Positions 17,398 through 45,673 of a stretch of DNA of 64,000 nucleotides are shown here, in pieces (positions within the stretch are counted from its first letter, which is position 1; each line of letters starts with the position of its first letter). This DNA is from a virus. Location of the stretch: positions 32,001 through 96,000 of IMG/VR virus record IMGVR_UViG_3300020048_003770. One strand, written 5' to 3'. Both the position numbers and the translations under genes were made by a program. Under the pieces are notes generated by a model, which was not told where the DNA came from, searched no databases, and saw only the letters and a program-made list of their open reading frames with translations.

Positions 17398-17676
17398 ATG
17401 GCAGATGAAATGAATCAGTTGGATATTAATGAAGTTCGTAGAAATGAAGTTATTGTTACATTGGATGGACGTGATATTGCAACGCCTATGGGTTCTCTTG
17501 GGGTATCTATGGAATCAACTCCTAGAGAAATTCTAGATGCTGTTGGCGGTATTATCGAGGAAGCGGAAGGAACTCGCGACGGCTATCAGGATGCTTATGG
17601 CGATTTTACTTACACCGTTCGCAAGGCAATGAATTCAAATACTATTTATGTATATCCTAAGCCTGTTGCTGGATGA
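17398..17676 (+). CDS. ubiquitin-like (beta-grasp) protein with C-terminal Gly
   Basis: 92 aa, ends IYVYPKPVAG-stop (ThiS/MoaD-like terminal strand); first gene of the operon with the JAB protein, ThiF nearby. Confidence 0.65.
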   Translation: MADEMNQLDINEVRRNEVIVTLDGRDIATPMGSLGVSMESTPREILDAVGGIIEEAEGTRDGYQDAYGDFTYTVRKAMNSNTIYVYPKPVAG

Positions 17677-17719
17677 TTAAATAATTGTATTAAACTAAAA
17701 TAAAGAAAGAAGGCAAACT

Positions 17720-19321
17720 ATGGAAGCACAAACTATGAATGTTGACGCACTGAATGAATATTCTGATGAAAAGAGATTGAGTATCTACAAAATGCTTTCT
17801 GCGGCATGTACCCATTTATATTCAAAGGGTAAGTTGCAGGAAGATAAGTTTATTAAGGTATCGGAAGTGTTTGCTGATTTGGCAGTTAATGATCCTGTTT
17901 TCATGGCTCATTTGACTGCTTATTTGAGCAAGAAAGAATCTAAGGATTTGAAGGTTCTTTCTGTATTCTTCAATTCTTTGAATGATGCGAATGGAACTCC
18001 TTTCTTCAAGGGAGCAAAACAGTGCAAGCCTAACTATAGAGATGTTAGTTATTCCGTATTGCAGCAGTTTGATCCGCATTTGGCGTTGAGAGTATTGACG
18101 CTTGCGCATAAGAAGTTTGGAGTTAAGGGGGTATTGAATGAGGCTAGGCATTTCCCAACTGGATTAAAGACTGCTTTCCGTAAGTATATTGGATATCGTG
18201 AGTCTAATATTGAGTCTTTGCGTGGAATGAAGAAGAGTGGTTTGACAAAGAAGATGCAGCAGATTTATCGTTTGACTCATACAAAGCCTAGTGATAGTGC
18301 CGTTGCTATTCTTCGTTGGAGTCAGAAGGACGGTAGAGATGTACAGATGGAGAATTTGCCAGACTTTGCTAATATGACTTCTAGTGAAATCGCAAGCAAG
18401 TTGGGTGAGATTAAGCTTTCTCCAACGGTTGCTTTGTCAGTTATCCCACAGGAAAAGATTACAGCTAAAGTTGCGGAAGCTCTGTTGAAGGGATGTACCG
18501 GTAATCAGTCTATCATTCTTTATAATTGGTTTGCAAGTAATGGGTTCTTGGACGTTAAGAGCATTAAGTCTCTTTTCAAGGATAAGGTTTCAACTTCCAC
18601 TACCGCTGTGGATAGAATTGATACATTGACTAAGAATGCAGACGAAGAAGACAAGCAGGAAATGGCTGAAATTCGTTCGACTGTTAGAAAGAGAGCGGCA
18701 AAAACATCTGAACTTGGCAAGATTTATGTTCATATTGATGCAAGTGGTTCTATGCAAAACGCAATTCAGTTTGCTATGGATAATGCATCGACTATTGCAG
18801 AATGTGTAACTGAACCATCAAAGAACTTCGGTTGGGGTCTTTTTGCAAATCATGGACGGAAATTGCCAATCCCTACTAATTTTAAGAAGGAAGATTTCTA
18901 CAAGATCCTATATGGTGCTAAGGCGGGTGGTTCAACTGATTGTATTGCTCTATATGAAGATGCTAGGAAGATGGGGGCGGAAGTTGATATTTATATTACT
19001 GATCAAGGTCATAATGTTGGTACGATTTCCAAGAGGATTCTAGATTTTCATGCTAGTCATCCACAGTTTAGTAAGCCAAAAGCTGCTGTTATTATCGATT
19101 TCAGTGGCAATAGGAATGCTCAAATTGTAAATCAGTTGGAAGATGGATTGAAAAAGGCTGGAATTCCAGTTTCAATCATGTATCCTGAAGCTCTTAAGGA
19201 GTCAGCATTAATCTCTCAGAGTGTTGCAACTGCTATTAAGGGCGAATTGACGGTTATTGAAGAAATCTTGGAAACTCCATTGCCATCGCTTCCAAAGTGG
19301 TGGGACAAAGTTAACAAGTAG
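17720..19321 (+). CDS. Ro60/TROVE-like helical domain plus C-terminal vWA domain protein
   Basis: helical N-terminus (DPVFMAHLTAY, LYRLTH-like), MIDAS IDASGSM, GGSTD, IYITDQG; 533 aa as in Ro60/Rsr. Confidence 0.75.
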   Translation: MEAQTMNVDALNEYSDEKRLSIYKMLSAACTHLYSKGKLQEDKFIKVSEVFADLAVNDPVFMAHLTAYLSKKESKDLKVLSVFFNSLNDANGTPFFKGAKQCKPNYRDVSYSVLQQFDPHLALRVLTLAHKKFGVKGVLNEARHFPTGLKTAFRKYIGYRESNIESLRGMKKSGLTKKMQQIYRLTHTKPSDSAVAILRWSQKDGRDVQMENLPDFANMTSSEIASKLGEIKLSPTVALSVIPQEKITAKVAEALLKGCTGNQSIILYNWFASNGFLDVKSIKSLFKDKVSTSTTAVDRIDTLTKNADEEDKQEMAEIRSTVRKRAAKTSELGKIYVHIDASGSMQNAIQFAMDNASTIAECVTEPSKNFGWGLFANHGRKLPIPTNFKKEDFYKILYGAKAGGSTDCIALYEDARKMGAEVDIYITDQGHNVGTISKRILDFHASHPQFSKPKAAVIIDFSGNRNAQIVNQLEDGLKKAGIPVSIMYPEALKESALISQSVATAIKGELTVIEEILETPLPSLPKWWDKVNK

Positions 19322-19333
19322 AAAGTAATAATC

Positions 19334-19900
19334 GTGAATATAATTGATGCTCAAATATGTTATGCGGATACCTCTCTTGGATTTTTGAGAGAGGTATCTT
19401 GCTTTATAACTCCAGAACACGGACTTCTATCTTTGACAACAAATGATAGTGGTGGTTCAGTTGATTTCGGATGGGATAAGATATGGGATACATTACGTTC
19501 TAGTAAAATTAAATCTAGTTGTGTAATAATGATCCATTCACATCCAAATGGAATGCCTACGATGTCTTCAATTGATTTTAATATGGTACAGGGGTGGAGA
19601 TTAGCTTTGGGAGTGCCTATTTATTTCAATATTGTTACGCAAGGTCATGGATGGTTTAGAGGTTGGAATGGCGGATGGAGCTTGGGGAGAGTTTCATCTT
19701 GTAAAGTTGATCGTGATGAAAACAAAAAGATAGTTGTAAATAGTGAAATTTTCCATGAGGTTGAATATTTAAATCGCAGTTATAGAATTTTGTATGAAAT
19801 AATTTATGGACTGTCTAAGTATCCTTTTTTACGTGAAAGTGGTATATTAGAAATTGAAAATTATATCAAGGATTCTTCAATGATGGAGTTTGAATTATGA
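19334..19900 (+). CDS. JAB/MPN+ (JAMM) isopeptidase
   Basis: N-terminal Glu (REVSCF) and HSHPNGMPTMSSID, i.e. HxHx7Sx2D. Confidence 0.8.
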   Translation: MNIIDAQICYADTSLGFLREVSCFITPEHGLLSLTTNDSGGSVDFGWDKIWDTLRSSKIKSSCVIMIHSHPNGMPTMSSIDFNMVQGWRLALGVPIYFNIVTQGHGWFRGWNGGWSLGRVSSCKVDRDENKKIVVNSEIFHEVEYLNRSYRILYEIIYGLSKYPFLRESGILEIENYIKDSSMMEFEL

Positions 19901-20208
19901 TAAAATTCCTTTCTAAGCTGATAGAACGTATAAGACGCCCTGTTTATGTGGTTTCAAGCAATGATGACGAAATGGATCGACTTTTATATCAAATCAAAAA
20001 ACAAAGTAGTGAGATAGAAGAGCAAAAGTTAGAGATACAAACTCTAAAAAATCAGTTGTTTTCAAATAGAGTGGAGGTGAATCCTGATTGTAATTCGTTT
20101 GATAATATTATACAAATCAAACTGAGTACGCATGGAGTTGCTGGAAGAGATAGAGAAAAACTTTTAGAACATGTGGTGCATGAATTGGTAAAGAAAGCTG
20201 GTTGGTGA
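19897..20208 (+). CDS. hypothetical coiled-coil protein
   Basis: ORF coupled to the JAB gene. Confidence 0.55.
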   Translation: MIKFLSKLIERIRRPVYVVSSNDDEMDRLLYQIKKQSSEIEEQKLEIQTLKNQLFSNRVEVNPDCNSFDNIIQIKLSTHGVAGRDREKLLEHVVHELVKKAGW

Positions 20209-20209
20209 A

Positions 20210-20974
20210 ATGAATGTTTATGGAGTTATTTTAAATGGAATGTGGTATTCTAATCGTTCTGAATTTAGAATGAATGGAATCGCTAACGGCATTTATAGCA
20301 TGAATATGGATGCGGATGATTTTCGTTCAACCATATCTCCCGCCAACATAGATGATGCTCGTAAATTTTTTAGCAAGGCGTCAAAAGTGAAATTAATCAG
20401 AGGTATATCGTTTCATGATGGTATTATCCCTGAAAATCCAATCTCTTACAAGTCTATTCCATTAAAGGTGAATGATTCTACCTATGATGAATTTGAAGAG
20501 ATTGAAGTTGCTCATTTGAAAGATAAGGTTTGTTATTACCTGCAAACAGTGTATACAAATAAATCTTATGCTTTATTGGACGTTAAGACTGCATATGAAG
20601 AGAAAAAGCCTTTAGATGGAGTTAAGGACGTTACTCCAGAGATGAGAATGGTTTATACATTCCATTGCTTTGAAAGAAAACAGGAAGAGATTAGAAAGGC
20701 GGTTTTGGAGCCTGAGCAAATCATTCGGAGATCTATGTCTGAGGGCGGTGCTGAAGTTGAGTATGTCAAGAAGAACAATAGAGGATTTGAAGTTCAGTGG
20801 AGTTCTGGAGGACATACTATCAATACTCAGTTGGATTCTAATTATAGAGTTGTTGAAGCTGGTTTTTGTGTTAGTAATTGGGATGGAACTCAATCTGCTA
20901 GGTCTTTGGTAAATGTATTGGATGATTATGTTGACGGTGGTGATTACATTCATAAAACAAGAACAGTGAGATGA
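20210..20974 (+). CDS. conserved hypothetical protein, candidate E2-like Ubl carrier
   Basis: C-terminal beta-rich domain with AGFCVSNWD..SARSLVNVL; operon context. Confidence 0.45.
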   Translation: MNVYGVILNGMWYSNRSEFRMNGIANGIYSMNMDADDFRSTISPANIDDARKFFSKASKVKLIRGISFHDGIIPENPISYKSIPLKVNDSTYDEFEEIEVAHLKDKVCYYLQTVYTNKSYALLDVKTAYEEKKPLDGVKDVTPEMRMVYTFHCFERKQEEIRKAVLEPEQIIRRSMSEGGAEVEYVKKNNRGFEVQWSSGGHTINTQLDSNYRVVEAGFCVSNWDGTQSARSLVNVLDDYVDGGDYIHKTRTVR

Positions 20975-20977
20975 TAA

Positions 20978-21382
20978 ATGGAAAAGCCCAATAAGATACA
21001 CGATAGCTTCTTTTGCGGAGGGATGTCAAACGAAGAAATTAATGAATTAGTTGGTTTTTTAGATTACAAATATTCTGTTGGGACTATGGTTCTGGTACAT
21101 GGTTCATTTAGTTCCTTTTCGGCTAAAGTGGTTGAACAAACTTATGGTTTTTGGGGAAGTTTTGGGAATATGTTACGTCAAGAATATATTGTTGAGACAG
21201 AGCAAGGAACTTTGGTTAGATATCCTGAGAATTGGTTAGAAACAGAAGAAGAAAGATCTGATAAAAGGTCAAAAATACGTAGGTTAATGGAAAAAGCGAA
21301 AACTCAAAATGATAATGACGTTAAAGAGGCACTTGTTTTTTGGGCGAATGCAATAGATGAAAGAATGTATCCTCAATTTTAG
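20978..21382 (+). CDS. hypothetical protein (SH3/KOW-like N-terminal part)
   Basis: KYSVGTMV..YIVE pattern. Confidence 0.5.
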   Translation: MEKPNKIHDSFFCGGMSNEEINELVGFLDYKYSVGTMVLVHGSFSSFSAKVVEQTYGFWGSFGNMLRQEYIVETEQGTLVRYPENWLETEEERSDKRSKIRRLMEKAKTQNDNDVKEALVFWANAIDERMYPQF

Positions 21383-21418
21383 AAAGGATTGTTTTAAAGA
21401 AAATTTGAAAACAGATTA

Positions 21419-21988
21419 ATGAAAATCTATAAAATAGCTCAAGAAAAATCTTATGAAGCCGAGTTTTTATCTACATTTAAACCGCAAAGTTTAGTTGGAT
21501 TGGCTTCTGAGGCATTAAAGTGTGAAAACTTTGAAAACTTTGAATCTGATTATCTTGGGGATATTAAACATGGAACTTATTGGCATGTAACAGATAATCC
21601 TAATTTTGCCATAGATTTATCTAAAGGTTCCAGAGATATGTCGTCTATGGCTGGCGGTGGAGAAAATGCGGGATCTTTAATGGTGACTTCTGATTTAACC
21701 CATTGGGCAAACTATTATGGAGATAGTCGTGGATATGCCGCTGAAATTGATTTAAGCGGGTTGAAACGTGACGAGTATAAGCAAATAAGCAGAGGTTTTG
21801 GAAATGAATTTTATATTAATGATGCATCAAAAGTTAAAGTGAAACAGGTTCTTCCCATTAAAAACGCTTTAAAAATAGATTCATATAGAAATTCAAGAAT
21901 TCCCAACAGCCAAGAGGAATTGAAACGATTTTATAATCAAGTCAACGATAGATATAAACAGTTTGTTGAATCTAAAAATAAATATTGA
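21419..21988 (+). CDS. putative ADP-ribosyltransferase-fold protein with MKIYKIAQ N-terminus
   Basis: YWHVTD, LMVTSD, GNEFYI ordered like the ART catalytic strands. Confidence 0.4.
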   Translation: MKIYKIAQEKSYEAEFLSTFKPQSLVGLASEALKCENFENFESDYLGDIKHGTYWHVTDNPNFAIDLSKGSRDMSSMAGGGENAGSLMVTSDLTHWANYYGDSRGYAAEIDLSGLKRDEYKQISRGFGNEFYINDASKVKVKQVLPIKNALKIDSYRNSRIPNSQEELKRFYNQVNDRYKQFVESKNKY

Positions 21989-22058
21989 TTTTTAACTTCA
22001 GATGTTGTATAATATAAACAGTTCAGGACAAGATTTGATCTTTGATCTTTGAGATTAT

Positions 22059-22192
22059 GGGGAAGTAGCCAAATGGAAAGGCACTATTATTCGGAAATAG
22101 CAAACAGCGATTATTACTTAAATTGTTTAATAGCAATTTCTTATCTAAACGCTTACAAACTTTTGGGGGTTCGATTCCCTCCTTCCCCACCA
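22059..22192 (+). ncRNA. tRNA-like RNA 1 (loop attcgga, UCG) with a ~60-nt module in the variable loop
   Basis: ggggaag/cttcccc plus ACCA, D-arm gcc..ggc, arm ctatt/aatag, T-loop ttcgatt; own TTGATT-N17-TATAAT promoter. Confidence 0.8.
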
Positions 22193-22282
22193 CTTTAAAA
22201 TAATTAAAATAAATATTGATTTTTGAAATAATATTTGTATAATAATGATACGAAACGATTTACTTGATCTTTAATAATTTAT

Positions 22283-22418
22283 GGAGAGGACGCCTAACGG
22301 TAGGGCACTATTCAGTTAAAATAGCAAAAATACAGCGATTATGCCTTCAATTGTTTAACCGCAATTGCTTTATGAACGCTTACAAACATATTAGGTTCGA
22401 CTCCTAAACTCTCCACCA
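22283..22418 (+). ncRNA. tRNA-like RNA 2 (loop cagttaa, GUU) with the same variable-loop module
   Basis: ggagag/ctctcc plus ACCA, D-arm, arm ctatt/aatag, T-arm ttagg-ttcgact-cctaa; own promoter. Confidence 0.8.
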
Positions 22419-22427
22419 CTTTTAATT

Positions 22428-22568
22428 TAGCGTATGAAATATGACGCAAGCCGAACCGAATATGCTCCTTGAGATAGTTAATGGGTTAGGCTTAGATAGC
22501 GAAGTTGTAAGGATTATATGCATGTAATTCTTTGAACATGGTCTTAAGTCCAAATGCCTATCTTGAGA
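22428..22568 (+). ncRNA. candidate structured RNA 3
   Basis: stems gcgt/acgc, aagcc.aacc/ggtt.ggctt, agatag/ctatct, aaggattata/tgtaattctt; no ORF. Confidence 0.45.
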
Positions 22569-22589
22569 TTTCTGTTCTTTTATAATTTA

Positions 22590-22707
22590 AAGCGATCCCT
22601 TATGAAATACTTACACGCAAGTTCATTTGGTTGAACAAATCACTATTAATGATTCGGATCTGGTTCAAATCCAGAGCAAAAAATAGTATTGCTAACTTGG
22701 ATCGCTT
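22590..22707 (+). ncRNA. Y RNA (YrlA)-like RNA 4: closing stem enclosing D, anticodon and T arms
   Basis: aagcgatcc/ggatcgctt outer stem, aatact/agtatt inner stem, gttc/gaac, aatca-ctattaa-tgatt, tctgg-ttcaaat-ccaga. Confidence 0.75.
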
Positions 22708-22730
22708 CTTTTTCTTGTTCTTTTATATTT

Positions 22731-22862
22731 TGACTTGTGGTTTACGAACAATGCCCGACATTTTTTTGTAAACGTAAGCCTTCAACTGCTGCTAAAAACA
22801 AATAACATTACTGTCTCAGGTTCGCAGTAGTCGGCGTAGAGTAGACATTCTCTACCAAGTCA
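22731..22862 (+). ncRNA. candidate structured RNA 5 (long closing stem, large single-stranded loop)
   Basis: tgacttg/caagtca, ccgac/gtcgg, tactg/cagta; boxA-like element upstream. Confidence 0.55.
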
Positions 22863-22869
22863 TTTCATT

Positions 22870-23013
22870 TTCCCAACAATCCCTTATTCAATGCTTACAA
22901 ACCGCGAATATAGCTCATTTGGTTAGAGCATTGTCCTTAAAAAACAAACGTAGAGGGTTCAAATCCTTCTATTTGCACCAAAAATAAAGCATTTACAACT
23001 TGGATTGTTGGAA
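22870..23013 (+). ncRNA. Y RNA-like RNA 6 enclosing a complete tRNA body (22904-22980, loop cttaaaa, UAA)
   Basis: ccaacaatcc/ggattgttgg outer stem, aatgctt/aagcatt inner stem; tRNA gcgaata/tatttgc plus ACCA. Confidence 0.75.
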
Positions 23014-23020
23014 TTTTTTT

Positions 23021-23053
23021 AAAAAGCGTATTATTAATTTAATACGCTTTTTT
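23021..23053 (+). terminator. intrinsic terminator closing the ncRNA array
   Basis: aaaaagcgtatta/taatacgcttttt plus T-tract. Confidence 0.85.
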
Positions 23054-23120
23054 GTTTTTTATCTTGATTATTGTACTTAATGGAGTATAATATTAAAAAT
23101 AGAAATTAGAAAGGATTAAT

Positions 23121-23420
23121 ATGTATAACGATTATAAAGACCTATGGTTGTCTTTTAACGGAATTTTAGATAATAGTTCTAAGGATTTTCAATATTCTTT
23201 GGATAGTAACAAAAATCCAAAGCCTAGAATGGTAATGGGCTGGAATCATTGTCATAGATGCAGCCGTTCATTTAGTAGATTTTGGTTTTACTCCAAAGAA
23301 CAGTTTGATAAAGAGGTTTCTGAAAATATAAAATGTCCTTGGTGTGACGGAGAAACAAAAGTATTTCATGAGACGGATGAAGAGATAATGCCCCAGTCTG
23401 AATTTGGAGTCGATATATGA
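23121..23420 (+). CDS. zinc-ribbon protein
   Basis: CHRC...CPWC. Confidence 0.6.
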   Translation: MYNDYKDLWLSFNGILDNSSKDFQYSLDSNKNPKPRMVMGWNHCHRCSRSFSRFWFYSKEQFDKEVSENIKCPWCDGETKVFHETDEEIMPQSEFGVDI

Positions 23421-23442
23421 GAACAAAATAGAAAGGATTAAC

Positions 23443-24051
23443 ATGGAAACAAAAATCGAAAACTTTTTAATTTGTGGAATAGGGGCGGCAGGGGCAAATA
23501 TCTTCATGAACTTGCTATATGCCTACCCTAATGCCACATTCACTGTAGTTGATTTTGATAAAGTGGAAGATAGAAATGTCAGTCCAGGAACTCAACCTTA
23601 CACTAAAGCTGATATAAATCGCCCTAAAACGCAAGCCTTGCAGAGAATAGCTCAAATGTTAAAACAAAAAAGAATTGATGCAGCGAATATAAAAATTGCA
23701 TCGAAGTTGGATATAACAGATAGAGTTAAAGACCCAAAAACAACATTGATAATTGATGCTTTCGATAATGCGGAATCTAGGAATCTATTTTTAGAATTAC
23801 CGAAGAAGTATAATGTATTGCATGTTGGATTTAGTGCCTTATTAAGTGGGGAAGCGGCTTGGAATGAGATTTATGAACCAATGACTAAATCAAAGTCGGA
23901 TGGTGAGATTGACGTTTGCGAAATGTCTATAGCTCGCCCTTTCATTATGTCATTAACTGGTATGGCATCTATCGTTATTGCTAATTTCATTGAGAGTGGC
24001 AAGAAAATCAATATGTATTTTGATAAGCATTTGAATGTTAAGAAGTTCTAA
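23443..24051 (+). CDS. ThiF/MoeB-family (E1-like) adenylyltransferase
   Basis: ICGIGAAG, VVDFDKVEDRNV, K..AL, IIDAFDN..SR; lone Cys in DVCE, no CxxC zinc pairs. Confidence 0.9.
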   Translation: METKIENFLICGIGAAGANIFMNLLYAYPNATFTVVDFDKVEDRNVSPGTQPYTKADINRPKTQALQRIAQMLKQKRIDAANIKIASKLDITDRVKDPKTTLIIDAFDNAESRNLFLELPKKYNVLHVGFSALLSGEAAWNEIYEPMTKSKSDGEIDVCEMSIARPFIMSLTGMASIVIANFIESGKKINMYFDKHLNVKKF

Positions 24052-28209: not shown

Positions 28210-29382
28210 TCAAGCGAGGGCAGCTTGACTCACGTCAAGTCTGACACCCTCTCGCCAGCAGGATGATGTCCCATCCTTTAAATCATTTAAACCTCTCTTA
28301 ACTATATTTATAGCTGCGTTCATATCTCTATTATGAGAAGTCAAACACTCAGGACAAACCCACTCTCTATCTTTTTGAGTTAATTCATTGTTCTTATATC
28401 CACAGGAACTGCATGTTTTCGTACTGGCAAACCATTTATCAATATGGTGAATAATTTTTCCATATTCCAAAGCTTTATTTTCCAATATTCCCATGAAATT
28501 AGAAAATCCAAGATCATTTATCTTCTTCCCATGTTCTTTTTTCATTGAACTGATATCCAAAGTTTCAAAAAACATAACATCATAAGTTTCACATAATTGT
28601 TTTGCAAGTTTGAAATGATAATCTAATCTTTTATTTGCAACTTTCTTATGTAATTTAGCCAATTGATGTTTTGCTTGTTGGTAATTATTTGAACCTTCAG
28701 TCTTTCTTGATAATGTCTTGTTCGCTTTGGATATCTTGTTTCTATTTTGTTTGAAAAATAGTGGAGCTTTTATTTTGGTTCCATCATCTTTAACTAGAAA
28801 ATCCGTACATCCGAAATCAAAGCCTGCGGTTTCACCCGTCATGGAAATTAATTCAGAATCATTTTCTAATTCGCAAACAATATAAACATACCAATCCTCT
28901 GATTTATCTTTTTTAAGTGTAATGCATTTTATTTCTCCTTTTGTTTCTCTTGATTTCCAGTATTTGTAAATTCTGTTATTTATTTTGATTTGGTTGAACG
29001 GCAATATTTTGTATCCATCTTGTTTGAAGGTAATGCTTGCATAGGATCTAACTTTTTTGAATGATGGAGGGCTTACTTTTCTAGTTTTGTTTTTCTTTTT
29101 GCAATTATCAAAGAATGCCTTGTATCCTTTTTGGATTCTATCTGTAATTTCTTGAATAGCTTGAGCGTTTACTTTTTTCCAGAATGAATATTTTTCTAAT
29201 TTTTTCAGTTTTGTGATATGTTTTTGGAGTTGAAATTTATTGAGGGATTTTCCGAATAGTTTGTAATATCTATAGTGGAGAGCGATGCAGTGGTTATAGA
29301 TATTGCCTGCTATTTTGGTTTGTTCATTCAGGAATTTGTTTTTCTTTGAATGATATAATTTATATTTGAATGTCTTTATCAT
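28210..29382 (-). CDS. tnpB: RNA-guided endonuclease TnpB
   Basis: KTFKYKLY HTH start; RuvC GFDFG / FFETLD / RDMNAAINI; zinc ribbon CSSCG..CPEC. Confidence 0.95.
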   Translation of the reverse strand: MIKTFKYKLYHSKKNKFLNEQTKIAGNIYNHCIALHYRYYKLFGKSLNKFQLQKHITKLKKLEKYSFWKKVNAQAIQEITDRIQKGYKAFFDNCKKKNKTRKVSPPSFKKVRSYASITFKQDGYKILPFNQIKINNRIYKYWKSRETKGEIKCITLKKDKSEDWYVYIVCELENDSELISMTGETAGFDFGCTDFLVKDDGTKIKAPLFFKQNRNKISKANKTLSRKTEGSNNYQQAKHQLAKLHKKVANKRLDYHFKLAKQLCETYDVMFFETLDISSMKKEHGKKINDLGFSNFMGILENKALEYGKIIHHIDKWFASTKTCSSCGYKNNELTQKDREWVCPECLTSHNRDMNAAINIVKRGLNDLKDGTSSCWREGVRLDVSQAALA

Positions 29383-45313: not shown

Positions 45314-45673
45314 GGGAGCGCTAGGAATCGATTGGCGTTTGAAAAAGTATTATTGCATGCAGAAGATCATGGCTGGCTTCTATAAATATCCATGAAAAAC
45401 AAGTAAACGGCGAAAGTCTTAAACTTGCTGCCTAATTAAAGGTAGCCAGAAACGGAGCAAGATAGTCTTGGTAGCTCTTAGTACTGTTGATTACAAGGCG
45501 GCGATTTGATTAAGCCTAATGGTCATGGCAAGAACGGGAAGACGTTCTGCGACTCATAATAAGCAATGAGAAGGTTTCTTTTGTTGAGCCTTTTAAATCA
45601 GCACAACAAGCATGTGAAGAAGTAATATCGTTTCTCGCACAACACGGGAGTTCGACTCTCCCCGCTTCCACCA
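45314..45673 (+). ncRNA. ssrA: tmRNA; tag (A)GESLKLAA at 45409-45435
   Basis: gggagcg/cgcttcc with G3:U70 plus ACCA; gcatgc/gcatgt helix; T-loop ttcgact; tag ORF ending LAA-stop. Confidence 0.92.

What the first reader, a model, noticed from the sequence alone, without database searches (positions are those of the whole stretch)
22059..23013. One RNA module grafted onto four tRNA bodies in two circularly permuted topologies
Seen: RNAs 1 and 2 carry in the variable loop agcgatt-N4-ctt-[hairpin]-yttat-N1-3-aacgcttaca. RNAs 4 and 6 carry the same two strands outside the tRNA: 5' atcccttat..aatRcttaca-[tRNA]-agYatt-N3-aacttggat 3'. The two-helix module with a ctt/cttat internal loop and a ttaca tail is therefore conserved, but closed by a hairpin in one pair and by the RNA termini in the other. 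Base pairs co-vary (agcg/cgct, agta/tact, agca/tgct). Anticodon-position triplets differ (UCG, GUU, AUU, UAA) and several loops are non-canonical. Inference: a constant protein handle (Ro-binding site) plus a variable tRNA bait, i.e. a guide-like array rather than decoding tRNAs.
Basis: partly seen in the sequence, partly recalled or inferred. Interest (0 to 1): 0.92.

Follow-up and report, generated by a model that had tools for sequence, protein, structure and literature searches.

The report
Phage tRNA mimics with Ro60-type handle
Four small RNAs of an uncultured large phage share one conserved two-helix "handle" joined to different tRNA bodies; they lie beside a gene for a very divergent Ro60-like ring protein, so they look like an undescribed version of the Ro60/Y-RNA particle rather than ordinary tRNAs.

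Summary
RNAs 1 and 2 are tRNA cloverleaves with a roughly 57-nt two-helix module in the variable arm. RNAs 4 and 6 carry the same module as a stem formed by their own ends.

Two covariance models find about 100 copies in 33 of 58 related phage loci. Both helices covary: 93-95% of cells are paired, against 33-45% when partners are slid. The same unpaired bases are near-invariant in both layouts: C, AACUU and the tail ACAAGC.

The neighbouring 533-aa gene matches no Pfam family, but its predicted fold matches only Ro60 over its full length (Z 14-16), with an invariant MIDAS motif. RNA and gene stay linked down to 24% protein identity. In one clade the RNAs have moved to just upstream of the gene.

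The module lacks the known Ro-binding motif and matches no Rfam family. Between two phages whose Ro-like proteins are 96% identical, changes are concentrated in the anticodon arm or loop in three of the four orthologous RNAs.

Best reading (about 0.55): these are Y-RNA-like partners of the phage Ro60-like protein, with variable tRNA bodies. Binding and transcription were not tested.

Earlier notes of this scan describe similar systems in other phages. I found no paper describing this module. Verdict: a new variant of a known kind.

The parts
22059..22192 (+). RNA1: class-II-like tRNA body (3-bp D stem, anticodon loop AUUCGGA, encoded CCA) with the handle in the variable arm
   Evidence: Rfam tRNA 46.9 bits; the minimum-energy fold is a cloverleaf plus a two-helix arm
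22106..22160 (+). Handle of RNA1, hairpin-closed. Inner helix 22106-22112 with 22146-22153; AC-UU loop; outer helix 22120-22127 with 22132-22139; tail ending ACAAAC at 22160
   Evidence: Model R2, 70.5 bits; fold
22283..22418 (+). RNA2: same build as RNA1, anticodon loop CAGUUAA (A at position 33), encoded CCA; handle at 22333-22388
   Evidence: Model R2, 68 bits; the full-length minimum-energy fold is a cloverleaf plus handle; no Rfam tRNA match
22590..22707 (+). RNA4: handle closed by the RNA's own ends (9-bp outer helix, 6-bp inner helix) around a tRNA-like body with D, anticodon (CUAUUAA) and T arms and only a 2-bp acceptor
   Evidence: Model R1, 110.1 bits; Rfam tRNA 36 bits for 22617-22678; fold z -3.55
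22873..23011 (+). RNA6: handle closed by the ends (10-bp and 7-bp helices) around a complete tRNA (22904-22980, anticodon UAA, CCA encoded but internal)
   Evidence: Model R1, 109.5 bits; ARAGORN and Rfam tRNA 60.4 bits; constrained fold -32.6 against a minimum of -34.6 kcal/mol
17720..19321 (+). Gene for a 533-aa divergent Ro60-like protein (helical ring plus vWA domain with MIDAS DxSxS); the proposed partner of the handle
   Evidence: AlphaFold2 pLDDT 85. Foldseek: the top 13 hits are all Ro60, E 6e-9 to 5e-6. VIA-align Z 14.2-16.4 over 418-434 residues. Invariant D340, S342, S344, T406, D428. No Pfam, PHROG or PDB sequence match
21985..22013 (+). Sigma-70-like promoter ahead of RNA1; a near-identical one lies at 22216-22243 ahead of RNA2
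   Evidence: Consensus scan, 10 of 12 matches each; the 19-nt upstream block is an exact repeat (D9)
23021..23052 (+). Terminator-like hairpin plus T run closing the array
   Evidence: T runs also follow the 3' strand of the outer helix in 43 of 65 end-closed copies, against a 15% background
22731..22865 (+). RNA5: a separate conserved structured RNA without the handle, lying inside the array
   Evidence: Fold z -4.56; homologs in L018, L005 and L035 with compensatory changes

Best explanation
RNAs 1, 2, 4 and 6 belong to an undescribed family of phage small RNAs.

The constant part is a handle made of four elements:
- an outer helix;
- an asymmetric internal loop, with a near-invariant C on one strand and AACUU on the other;
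- an inner helix;
- a single-stranded tail, Y-ACA-A-R-C.

This handle is joined to a tRNA or tRNA-like body at different places, or to almost nothing.

Inferred mechanism: the handle is the docking site for the phage's own divergent Ro60-like ring protein, as the terminal stem of a Y RNA is for Ro60. The tRNA body, with its fast-changing anticodon loop, is the exposed part. It would engage proteins that recognise tRNA, such as host anticodon nucleases, modification enzymes or repair enzymes, or aminoacyl-tRNA synthetases.

Shown here: the RNA family, its structure, its modularity, the fold of the protein, and the genomic linkage.
Inferred only: the binding, the expression, and what the particle does.
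For: 1. Structure.
- End-closed model R1 gives 73 matches in 58 sources. 93.4% of cells are paired, against 61% when shuffled and 33-43% when slid, and all 15 handle pairs show double changes.
- Hairpin model R2 gives 29 matches, 95.3% paired against 74% shuffled and 33-45% slid.
- The result holds on a plain MAFFT alignment that was not fitted to the structure.

2. Shared unpaired bases in both layouts.
- CUU is 100% conserved in the hairpin form and 91-97% in the end-closed form.
- ACA is 100% conserved in both. The C after the outer helix is 87-89% conserved.

3. Partner protein. Ro60 is the only full-length structural match, and the MIDAS residues are invariant.

4. Linkage.
- 18 of 19 loci with about 5 kb on both sides have a copy, two of them only weakly at about 25 bits.
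- In the clade with 41-44% protein identity, the RNAs lie 11-300 nt upstream of the gene instead of 2-5 kb downstream.
- A 595-kb phage whose protein is only 24% identical has copies of 88.6 and 78.3 bits 1-4 kb upstream.
- There are no further copies elsewhere in the 161-kb genome.

5. Modularity.
- Bodies range from complete cloverleaves with at least 15 different anticodons to 65-86-nt forms with no tRNA.
- Relatives show a third insertion site.

6. Variable anticodon arm. Against the 96%-identity relative L018:
- RNA6 differs at 5 of 17 anticodon-arm positions (UAA versus UCC) but at about 5% of positions elsewhere.
- In RNA1 the anticodon loop is replaced by a 9-nt loop, beside several scattered changes in the acceptor, D stem and handle.
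- RNA2's second L018 paralog differs mainly in the anticodon arm.
- RNA4's loop is unchanged in L018 and differs only in the more distant L005.
- Many loops have 8-9 nt or lack U33.

7. Precedent. Y RNAs with tRNA-like domains are encoded next to Ro60 in bacteria and phages (PMC4201824). Thermus phage phiLo Ro60 binds phage-encoded Y-like RNAs (PMC12135203).
Against: - No binding, transcription or processing data exist.
- The handle has neither the GGUCCGA nor the GNCGAA motif that Ro60/Rsr is reported to contact (PMC4201824, PMC12135203).
- It matches no Rfam Y RNA or YrlA model.
- The Ro-like gene sits in a conserved cluster with a small Ubl-like protein, several unknown proteins and a ThiF-type E1, so another cluster protein could be the partner.
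- RNA6 is a complete tRNA with CCA and the only UAA-anticodon (Leu-reading) tRNA of the phage, which fits a decoding role.
- One locus with full flanks (L017) has no copy, and several others with about 5 kb on one side have none.
- The large alignments were fitted to the models, which favours pairing.
Confidence: 0.55

Rival explanations
1. The RNAs are working (decoding) phage tRNAs. The handle is a maturation, stability or regulatory element of their precursors. In RNAs 4 and 6 it would be a leader-trailer duplex removed by RNase P and 3' trimming. In RNAs 1 and 2 it would be an enlarged class-II variable arm. It would have no dedicated tie to the Ro-like protein.
For: - RNA6 scores 60.4 bits as tRNA, encodes CCA like most of the phage's tRNAs, and is its only UAA-anticodon (Leu-reading) tRNA.
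- Many end-closed copies embed ARAGORN-recognised cloverleaves.
- RNAs 1 and 2 have the 3-bp D stem and long-arm position typical of class II tRNAs and have free CCA ends. Synthetases for Ser and Leu do not read the anticodon (textbook knowledge, not tested here).
Against: - Body-less 65-86-nt copies keep the handle.
- RNA4-type bodies have no acceptor stem.
- Many anticodon loops have 8-9 nt or A33.
- The anticodon changes on an otherwise constant body between near-identical phages. This is hard to square with a fixed amino-acid identity.
- An internal insert cannot be trimmed off.
- The invariant unpaired bases and the persistent linkage to the Ro-like gene are left unexplained.
Confidence: 0.17
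2. The handle is real, but its partner is another product of the conserved cluster (the Ubl / ThiF-type E1 / JAB-like set or one of the unknown 134-254-aa proteins), or a host protein. One example would be a Ubl-dependent tRNA sulfur-transfer or tagging pathway that uses tRNA-like RNAs. The Ro-like protein would act on other RNAs.
For: - The RNA array lies between unknown genes and the ThiF gene in most loci.
- ThiF remains nearby in distant clades.
- Ubl-E1 pairs that thiolate tRNA are established in Thermus and in eukaryotes (general knowledge, not tested here).
- The handle lacks the known Ro motif (PMC4201824).
Against: - When the array moves, it moves to the Ro-like gene's immediate upstream side, 11-300 nt away.
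- Ro60 is the only cluster member with a known RNA-binding fold, and the Ro60 family is regularly encoded next to its RNAs (PMC4201824).
- No PP-loop or other tRNA-modifying domain was found in the neighbours.
Confidence: 0.15
3. The variable-arm inserts of RNAs 1 and 2 are introns or mobile insertions that are spliced out, and the terminal stems of RNAs 4 and 6 are processing stems of the same origin.
For: The insert sits cleanly between the anticodon and T arms. Non-canonical intron positions exist in archaeal tRNAs (general knowledge).
Against: - No intron family was matched, apart from one chance-level 14.5-bit partial match.
- About 57 nt is far too short for a self-splicing intron.
- The phage uses bacterial signals: tmRNA, sigma-70-like promoters and intrinsic terminators.
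- The same element occurs as a free-standing RNA and at three different positions.
Confidence: 0.03

Closest known systems
YrlA-type bacterial and phage Y RNAs with Ro60/Rsr (Rfam RF02553; Chen et al. 2014, PMC4201824; structure preprint 10.1101/312249)
   Same: - Small RNAs encoded next to a Ro60-fold gene.
- A stem formed by the 5' and 3' ends (RNAs 4 and 6).
- A tRNA-like domain with T and D arms.
- More than one RNA per locus.
- Also present in phages.
   Different: - No GNCGAA motif and no match to the YrlA model.
- In YrlA the tRNA-like part is permuted, with the Ro stem in the place of the anticodon arm and no anticodon loop. Here the bodies keep the natural arm order and an anticodon arm, and some are complete tRNAs.
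- The handle also occurs inside the variable arm, next to the D region, or alone.
- The protein is not detected by the TROVE profile.
Thermus phage phiLo Ro60 with Yrl1/Yrl2 (PMC12135203; PDB 9KOP, 9L5Y)
   Same: A phage-encoded Ro60 with phage-encoded partner RNAs beside the gene. This protein is the top structural match to the model (Z 16.4).
   Different: - phiLo's RNAs are classic stem / large-bulge / stem Y RNAs with a CGAA motif and no tRNA body.
- The proteins share only 14-17% identity.
- A link to PNPase is shown there and is unknown here.
Metazoan Y RNAs (Rfam RF00019) with Ro60
   Same: - A terminal stem with a conserved interruption serves as the protein site.
- The rest of the RNA is variable.
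- U-rich 3' ends follow the stem.
- The 3'-strand bases ACUUG next to the stem resemble those of vertebrate Y RNAs (from my memory of those sequences, not tested).
   Different: The 5'-strand motif differs, there is no Rfam match, and there is no tRNA body.
Dictyostelium Class I RNAs (Rfam RF01414; PMC7919456)
   Same: A short stem joining the two ends, followed directly by a conserved unpaired motif. As I recall it, that motif reads CCUUACAGCAA, which is close to the tail here (CUUACAAGCA). The conserved positions given in the paper fit this.
   Different: - There is no model match at the array: the best match in the genome is 14 bits, elsewhere.
- The host is eukaryotic.
- There is no second helix or internal loop.
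- The known partner is an RRM protein.
- This is a short-motif resemblance only.
Class II tRNAs (Ser, Leu, Tyr, Sec) with long variable arms
   Same: RNAs 1 and 2 have the arm at the class II position, a 3-bp D stem and a CCA end.
   Different: The arm is about 57 nt with two helices and an internal loop, against 10-25 nt in class II tRNAs. The anticodon loops vary and are often non-canonical.

Membership tests
YrlA / Y RNA (Rfam RF02553, RF00019) | Match to the family covariance model | tested here: not met
   There is no YrlA or Y_RNA match at E up to 10 in 21900-23150 or in a second locus. RF02553 finds nothing in the whole genome.
YrlA / Y RNA (Rfam RF02553, RF00019) | Ro/Rsr-contact motif GGUCCGA or GNCGAAN0-1G near the 5' end (PMC4201824) | tested here: not met
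   The 5' strand of the handle is outer helix, C-Y-N-A, inner helix, Y-ACA-A-R-C. No CGAA occurs in any handle of the window.
YrlA / Y RNA (Rfam RF02553, RF00019) | Encoded beside a Ro60 ortholog | tested here: met
   In the window the RNAs lie 2.8-3.6 kb downstream of a Ro60-fold gene. In another clade they lie 11-300 nt upstream. The linkage is kept at 24% protein identity.
YrlA / Y RNA (Rfam RF02553, RF00019) | Stem formed by the 5' and 3' ends plus a tRNA-like domain (T and D arms) | tested here: inconclusive
   RNAs 4 and 6 meet this in outline. However, the arm order and the joining point differ from YrlA, and RNAs 1 and 2 have the handle inside the tRNA.
YrlA / Y RNA (Rfam RF02553, RF00019) | Physically bound by Ro60 | not testable with these tools
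   No tool for RNA-protein complexes is available. This needs a gel-shift assay or immunoprecipitation.
Ro60 / TROVE proteins (for the 533-aa neighbour) | Helical-repeat ring followed by a vWA domain with a MIDAS site | tested here: met
   Ten Ro60 entries match at Z 14.2-16.4 with 418-434 residues aligned across residues 17-523. vWA-only hits score about 12 over roughly 155 residues. DxSxS, T and D are invariant in 43 sequences.
Ro60 / TROVE proteins (for the 533-aa neighbour) | Match to Pfam TROVE (PF05731) or sequence similarity to solved Ro60 | tested here: not met
   Pfam gives no hit, and six-frame TROVE finds nothing in the genome. A profile of 43 sequences finds no Ro60 chain. Only a faint vWA_Ro60 match appears, in 3 of 43 members.
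tRNA (Rfam RF00005) | Cloverleaf above the gathering score | tested here: inconclusive
   RNA6 scores 60.4, RNA1 46.9 and the RNA4 core 36 bits without an acceptor stem. RNA2 has no match.
tRNA (Rfam RF00005) | Canonical 7-nt anticodon loop with U33, and a free acceptor end | tested here: inconclusive
   - RNA1 has a canonical loop and a free CCA end.
- RNA2 has A33.
- RNA4 has no acceptor stem.
- RNA6 has a C-A mismatch closing the loop, and its CCA is buried inside the RNA.
- Relatives often have 8-9-nt loops.
Dictyostelium Class I RNA (RF01414) | Match to the family model | tested here: not met
   There is no match at the array. The best match in the genome is 14 bits, elsewhere.

The most novel reading that the evidence does not exclude
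The array is a set of exchangeable baits. Each RNA would present a different tRNA anticodon arm on a common handle that docks on the phage Ro60-like ring. The particle could then capture tRNA-directed host defence proteins such as anticodon nucleases, or damaged tRNAs. It could hand them to the neighbouring ubiquitin-like E1/JAB machinery or to RNA-repair enzymes. That would make it an RNA-programmed targeting system built from tRNA parts.
Probability: 0.12. Interest if true: 0.9.

Novelty: new variant of a known kind. Interest (0 to 1): 0.7.

Why it matters
Ro60 and Y RNAs are conserved from bacteria to humans, but what the tRNA-like part of bacterial Y RNAs is for remains open. This family offers three things:
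- A Ro60-fold protein that sequence searches miss.
- A new, sharply defined RNA handle that is simple to mutate.
- A natural series in which the same handle carries complete tRNAs, partial tRNAs or nothing, with anticodon loops that change between near-identical phages.

Together these make the questions "what does the tRNA part recruit?" and "how does Ro60 choose its RNAs?" directly testable. The family also bears on how large phages deal with host attacks on tRNA, and it warns annotators that some phage "tRNA genes" sit inside larger RNAs.

Tried and rejected
- **Rfam.** At E up to 10, the array and a second locus gave only tRNA matches for the bodies. There was no Y RNA, YrlA, Class I or convincing intron match.
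- **Sequence routes to the protein.** Pfam, PHROGs and PDB sequence searches, with a single sequence and with a profile, gave nothing for the 533-aa protein. Only the predicted fold showed what it is.
- **Single-protein scan of viral contigs.** This found no relatives. The alignment-based scans did.
- **My own regular-expression helix descriptor.** It was too loose, giving hundreds of chance hits, and it missed RNAs 1 and 2 because of a mismatch in the inner helix. I replaced it with covariance models.
- **Full-length MAFFT alignment of the hairpin-type RNAs.** It misaligned the outer helix, so only the module was modelled.
- **Felix O1.** Earlier scan notes report a Ro60-like gene with handle-bearing RNAs in phages of this type. 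Neither model finds this handle there; only plain tRNAs match. That handle is therefore different or too distant.
- **Virus Rctr197k.** Its protein is 25% identical. The models find only ordinary tRNAs and one weak hit.
- **Cultured relatives.** Blastn against GenBank phages matched only the tRNA body of RNA6. No cultured phage carries the protein. Only two MAG contigs among 185,579 species genomes carry it, so the host stays unknown.
- **Promoter -10 boxes directly upstream of end-closed copies.** These are not clearly enriched (9 of 65 against a 6% background), so whether each unit is transcribed on its own is open.
- **RNA5 as a pairing partner.** The complementarity of RNA5 to the handle tail is not conserved in RNA5 homologs, so I rejected it as a pairing partner.
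- **ThiF neighbourhood.** ThiF stays nearby in distant clades too, so the neighbourhood cannot separate the Ro-like protein from the E1 system as the partner.
Full report
**What is in the window.** The window is part of a 161-kb uncultured-phage record. The stretch 22059-23013 is non-coding. It lies between unknown genes and a ThiF-type gene.

- RNA1 (22059-22192) scores 46.9 bits as tRNA, with a long insert in the variable region. Its minimum-energy fold is a cloverleaf whose variable arm is a two-helix hairpin.
- RNA2 (22283-22418) has the same build, and its full-length minimum-energy fold shows it.
- RNA4 (22590-22707) folds as a 9-bp stem between its two ends, an internal loop, a 6-bp helix and a three-arm tRNA-like core without an acceptor stem.
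- RNA6 (22873-23011) has 10-bp and 7-bp helices around a complete tRNA with anticodon UAA. The handle-plus-cloverleaf fold is 2 kcal/mol above an alternative in which the 5' strand of the inner helix pairs with the D-arm region.

The 5'-strand pattern occurs three times, against 0.01 expected. Sigma-70-like promoters precede RNAs 1 and 2, and a terminator closes the array.

**The module is a conserved, structured family.** The 533-aa neighbour has over 160 unannotated relatives in metagenomes. I fetched 58 loci around them. They share the gene order: small protein, 533-aa protein, two or three unknown genes, about 1 kb of non-coding DNA, then ThiF. The non-coding gap holds the same tail motif.

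- A covariance model of the end-closed form (R1) found 73 matches. A few of these are plain tRNAs matching only the body part of the model.
- A model of the hairpin-closed module alone (R2) found 29 matches.
- In the end-closed alignment 93.4% of cells are paired, against 61% after shuffling and 33-43% with partners slid. Every one of the 15 handle pairs shows changes on both sides.
- In the hairpin alignment the figures are 95.3%, 74% and 33-45%.
- These alignments are fitted to the models, which favours pairing, so I also counted on the plain MAFFT seed alignment. That gave 97.5% paired, against 74% shuffled and 31-50% slid.

The unpaired bases are the most conserved part, and they are the same in both layouts:
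- a C directly after the outer helix (87-89%);
- AACUU directly before its 3' strand (CUU 91-100%);
- the tail Y-ACA-A-R-C after the inner helix (ACA 100%).

Helices that covary around invariant unpaired bases are what one expects of a specific binding site.

**One handle, many bodies.** ARAGORN recognises cloverleaves with at least 15 different anticodons inside end-closed copies. Other copies hold acceptor-less bodies or non-tRNA inserts. Copies of 65-86 nt consist of little more than the handle and a small loop.

In several loci the handle sits at a third place, between a D-like hairpin and the anticodon arm. The relation is therefore grafting at several sites, not one circular permutation. 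17 loci carry both main layouts. The whole genome of this phage has only the four copies in the array.

**The anticodon arm is the variable part.** Locus L018 has a Ro-like protein 96% identical to the window's.
- Its RNA6 ortholog is 95% identical overall. It differs at 5 of 17 anticodon-arm positions, changing UAA to UCC with matching stem changes, but at about 5% of positions elsewhere.
- Its RNA1 ortholog has the 7-nt anticodon loop replaced by a 9-nt loop, alongside several scattered changes in the acceptor, D stem and handle.
- A second paralog of RNA2 differs mainly in the anticodon arm.
- RNA4's loop is unchanged in L018 and differs only in the more distant L005.
- Across the family many loops have 8-9 nt or lack U33.

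A change of anticodon on an otherwise constant body does not fit a fixed amino-acid identity. This favours mimicry over decoding for most members. Against that, RNA6 encodes CCA as most of the phage's tRNAs do, and it is the only UAA-anticodon (Leu-reading) tRNA among the 18 found. A decoding role for that one, after processing, is not excluded.

**The neighbour is a Ro60-fold protein.** Pfam, PHROGs and PDB sequence searches find nothing. Only a faint vWA_Ro60 signal appears, in 3 of 43 relatives.

The AlphaFold2 model, built from 43 sequences, has mean pLDDT 85.
- In Foldseek, the 13 best PDB matches are all Ro60, from frog, human, Deinococcus and Thermus phage phiLo. They have E 6e-9 to 5e-6 and are aligned over the full length.
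- In VIA-align, ten Ro60 entries score Z 14.2-16.4 with 418-434 residues aligned. The vWA-only matches score about 12 over roughly 155 residues.
- The MIDAS residues are invariant in the family.

**Linkage.**
- Of 19 loci with about 5 kb on both sides, 18 hold a copy, two of them only at about 25 bits.
- In relatives with 41-44% protein identity, the RNAs lie 11-300 nt upstream of the gene instead of 2-5 kb downstream.
- In a 595-kb uncultured phage whose protein is 24% identical, copies of 88.6 and 78.3 bits lie 1-4 kb upstream.
- The ThiF gene also stays nearby, so the neighbourhood alone cannot exclude other cluster proteins as the partner.
- T runs follow the 3' strand of the outer helix in 43 of 65 copies, against a 15% background. 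This fits termination, or a U-rich tail, at the end of each RNA.

**Comparison with what is known.** Chen et al. 2014 (PMC4201824) found YrlA-type RNAs with a tRNA-like domain next to Ro60 in more than 250 bacteria and phages, and proposed GNCGAA as the Rsr contact. Thermus phage phiLo Ro60 binds two phage Y-like RNAs with a CGAA motif (PMC12135203).

The present RNAs share the logic: a Ro60-fold gene, adjacent small RNAs, an end-to-end stem and tRNA mimicry. They fail the tests for membership:
- no model match;
- no CGAA motif;
- different connectivity;
- real anticodon arms;
- several graft sites.

The tail resembles the conserved motif of Dictyostelium Class I RNAs (PMC7919456), but that model finds nothing at the array. 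I found no paper describing this handle.

Earlier notes of this scan report similar Ro60-like genes with handle-tagged tRNA mimics in other phages. These are unpublished AI notes. I tested one lead: this handle's models do not match Felix O1.

**Verdict.**
- The inference of a constant protein handle plus a variable tRNA part is supported by structure, conservation, modularity and linkage.
- Binding to the Ro-like protein is likely but untested.
- The function (bait, tether, quality control or regulated tRNA supply) is open.

I rate this a new variant of the Ro60/Y-RNA kind, of high interest to RNA and phage biologists.

Noticed in passing
window 22731-22865: RNA5 is a separate structured RNA without the handle (fold z -4.56). 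It is conserved in L018, L005 and part of L035, with compensatory changes and an invariant GUAGACAUUC stretch. Its stretch complementary to the handle tail is not conserved.
   Followed up: partly
window 22420-22588: The 'RNA3' stretch has no fold signal (z -0.32) and is found only in the closest relative, L018.
   Followed up: partly
window 22265-22280, 22573-22588, 22716-22731: A repeated block, TGTTCTTTTATAATTT, sits a few bases before RNA2, RNA4 and RNA5. It recurs before RNAs in L005 and L008. It may be a compact promoter or a processing signal.
   Followed up: no
L019 10342-10488; L009 11121-11257; L030 8410-8540: These show a third layout: the handle lies between a D-like hairpin and the anticodon arm of a tRNA-like RNA that has a normal acceptor stem and CCA.
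   Followed up: partly
L008 11983-12046: The hairpin-type model also matches the junction of two tandem end-closed units, that is, the 3' strand of one plus the 5' strand of the next. This hints at how one layout could arise from the other, or at pairing between units in a long transcript.
   Followed up: no
L018 6265-7400: The closest relative has three hairpin-type copies where the window has two, so the copy number of the array changes quickly.
   Followed up: no
window 17398-24051 and loci L005-L010: The gene order is conserved: an ~80-100-aa protein, the Ro60-like protein, unknown proteins of ~190 and ~255 aa, the RNA array, then a ThiF-type E1. Relatives carry RNA ligase, 2'-phosphotransferase and HD/kinase genes nearby, which suggests RNA repair.
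   Followed up: partly
window 22890-22897 with 22926-22933: In RNA6 the 5' strand of the inner helix can instead pair with the D-arm region of the embedded tRNA. That fold is the computed minimum, 2 kcal/mol better, and could be a switch.
   Followed up: partly
window 28210-29382 (-): A 390-aa ORF matches phage transposase families (phrog_506, E 6e-93), so an insertion element lies inside the tRNA-rich region.
   Followed up: no
window 45314-45673: The phage encodes a tmRNA (Rfam, 66.4 bits). ARAGORN did not report it.
   Followed up: no
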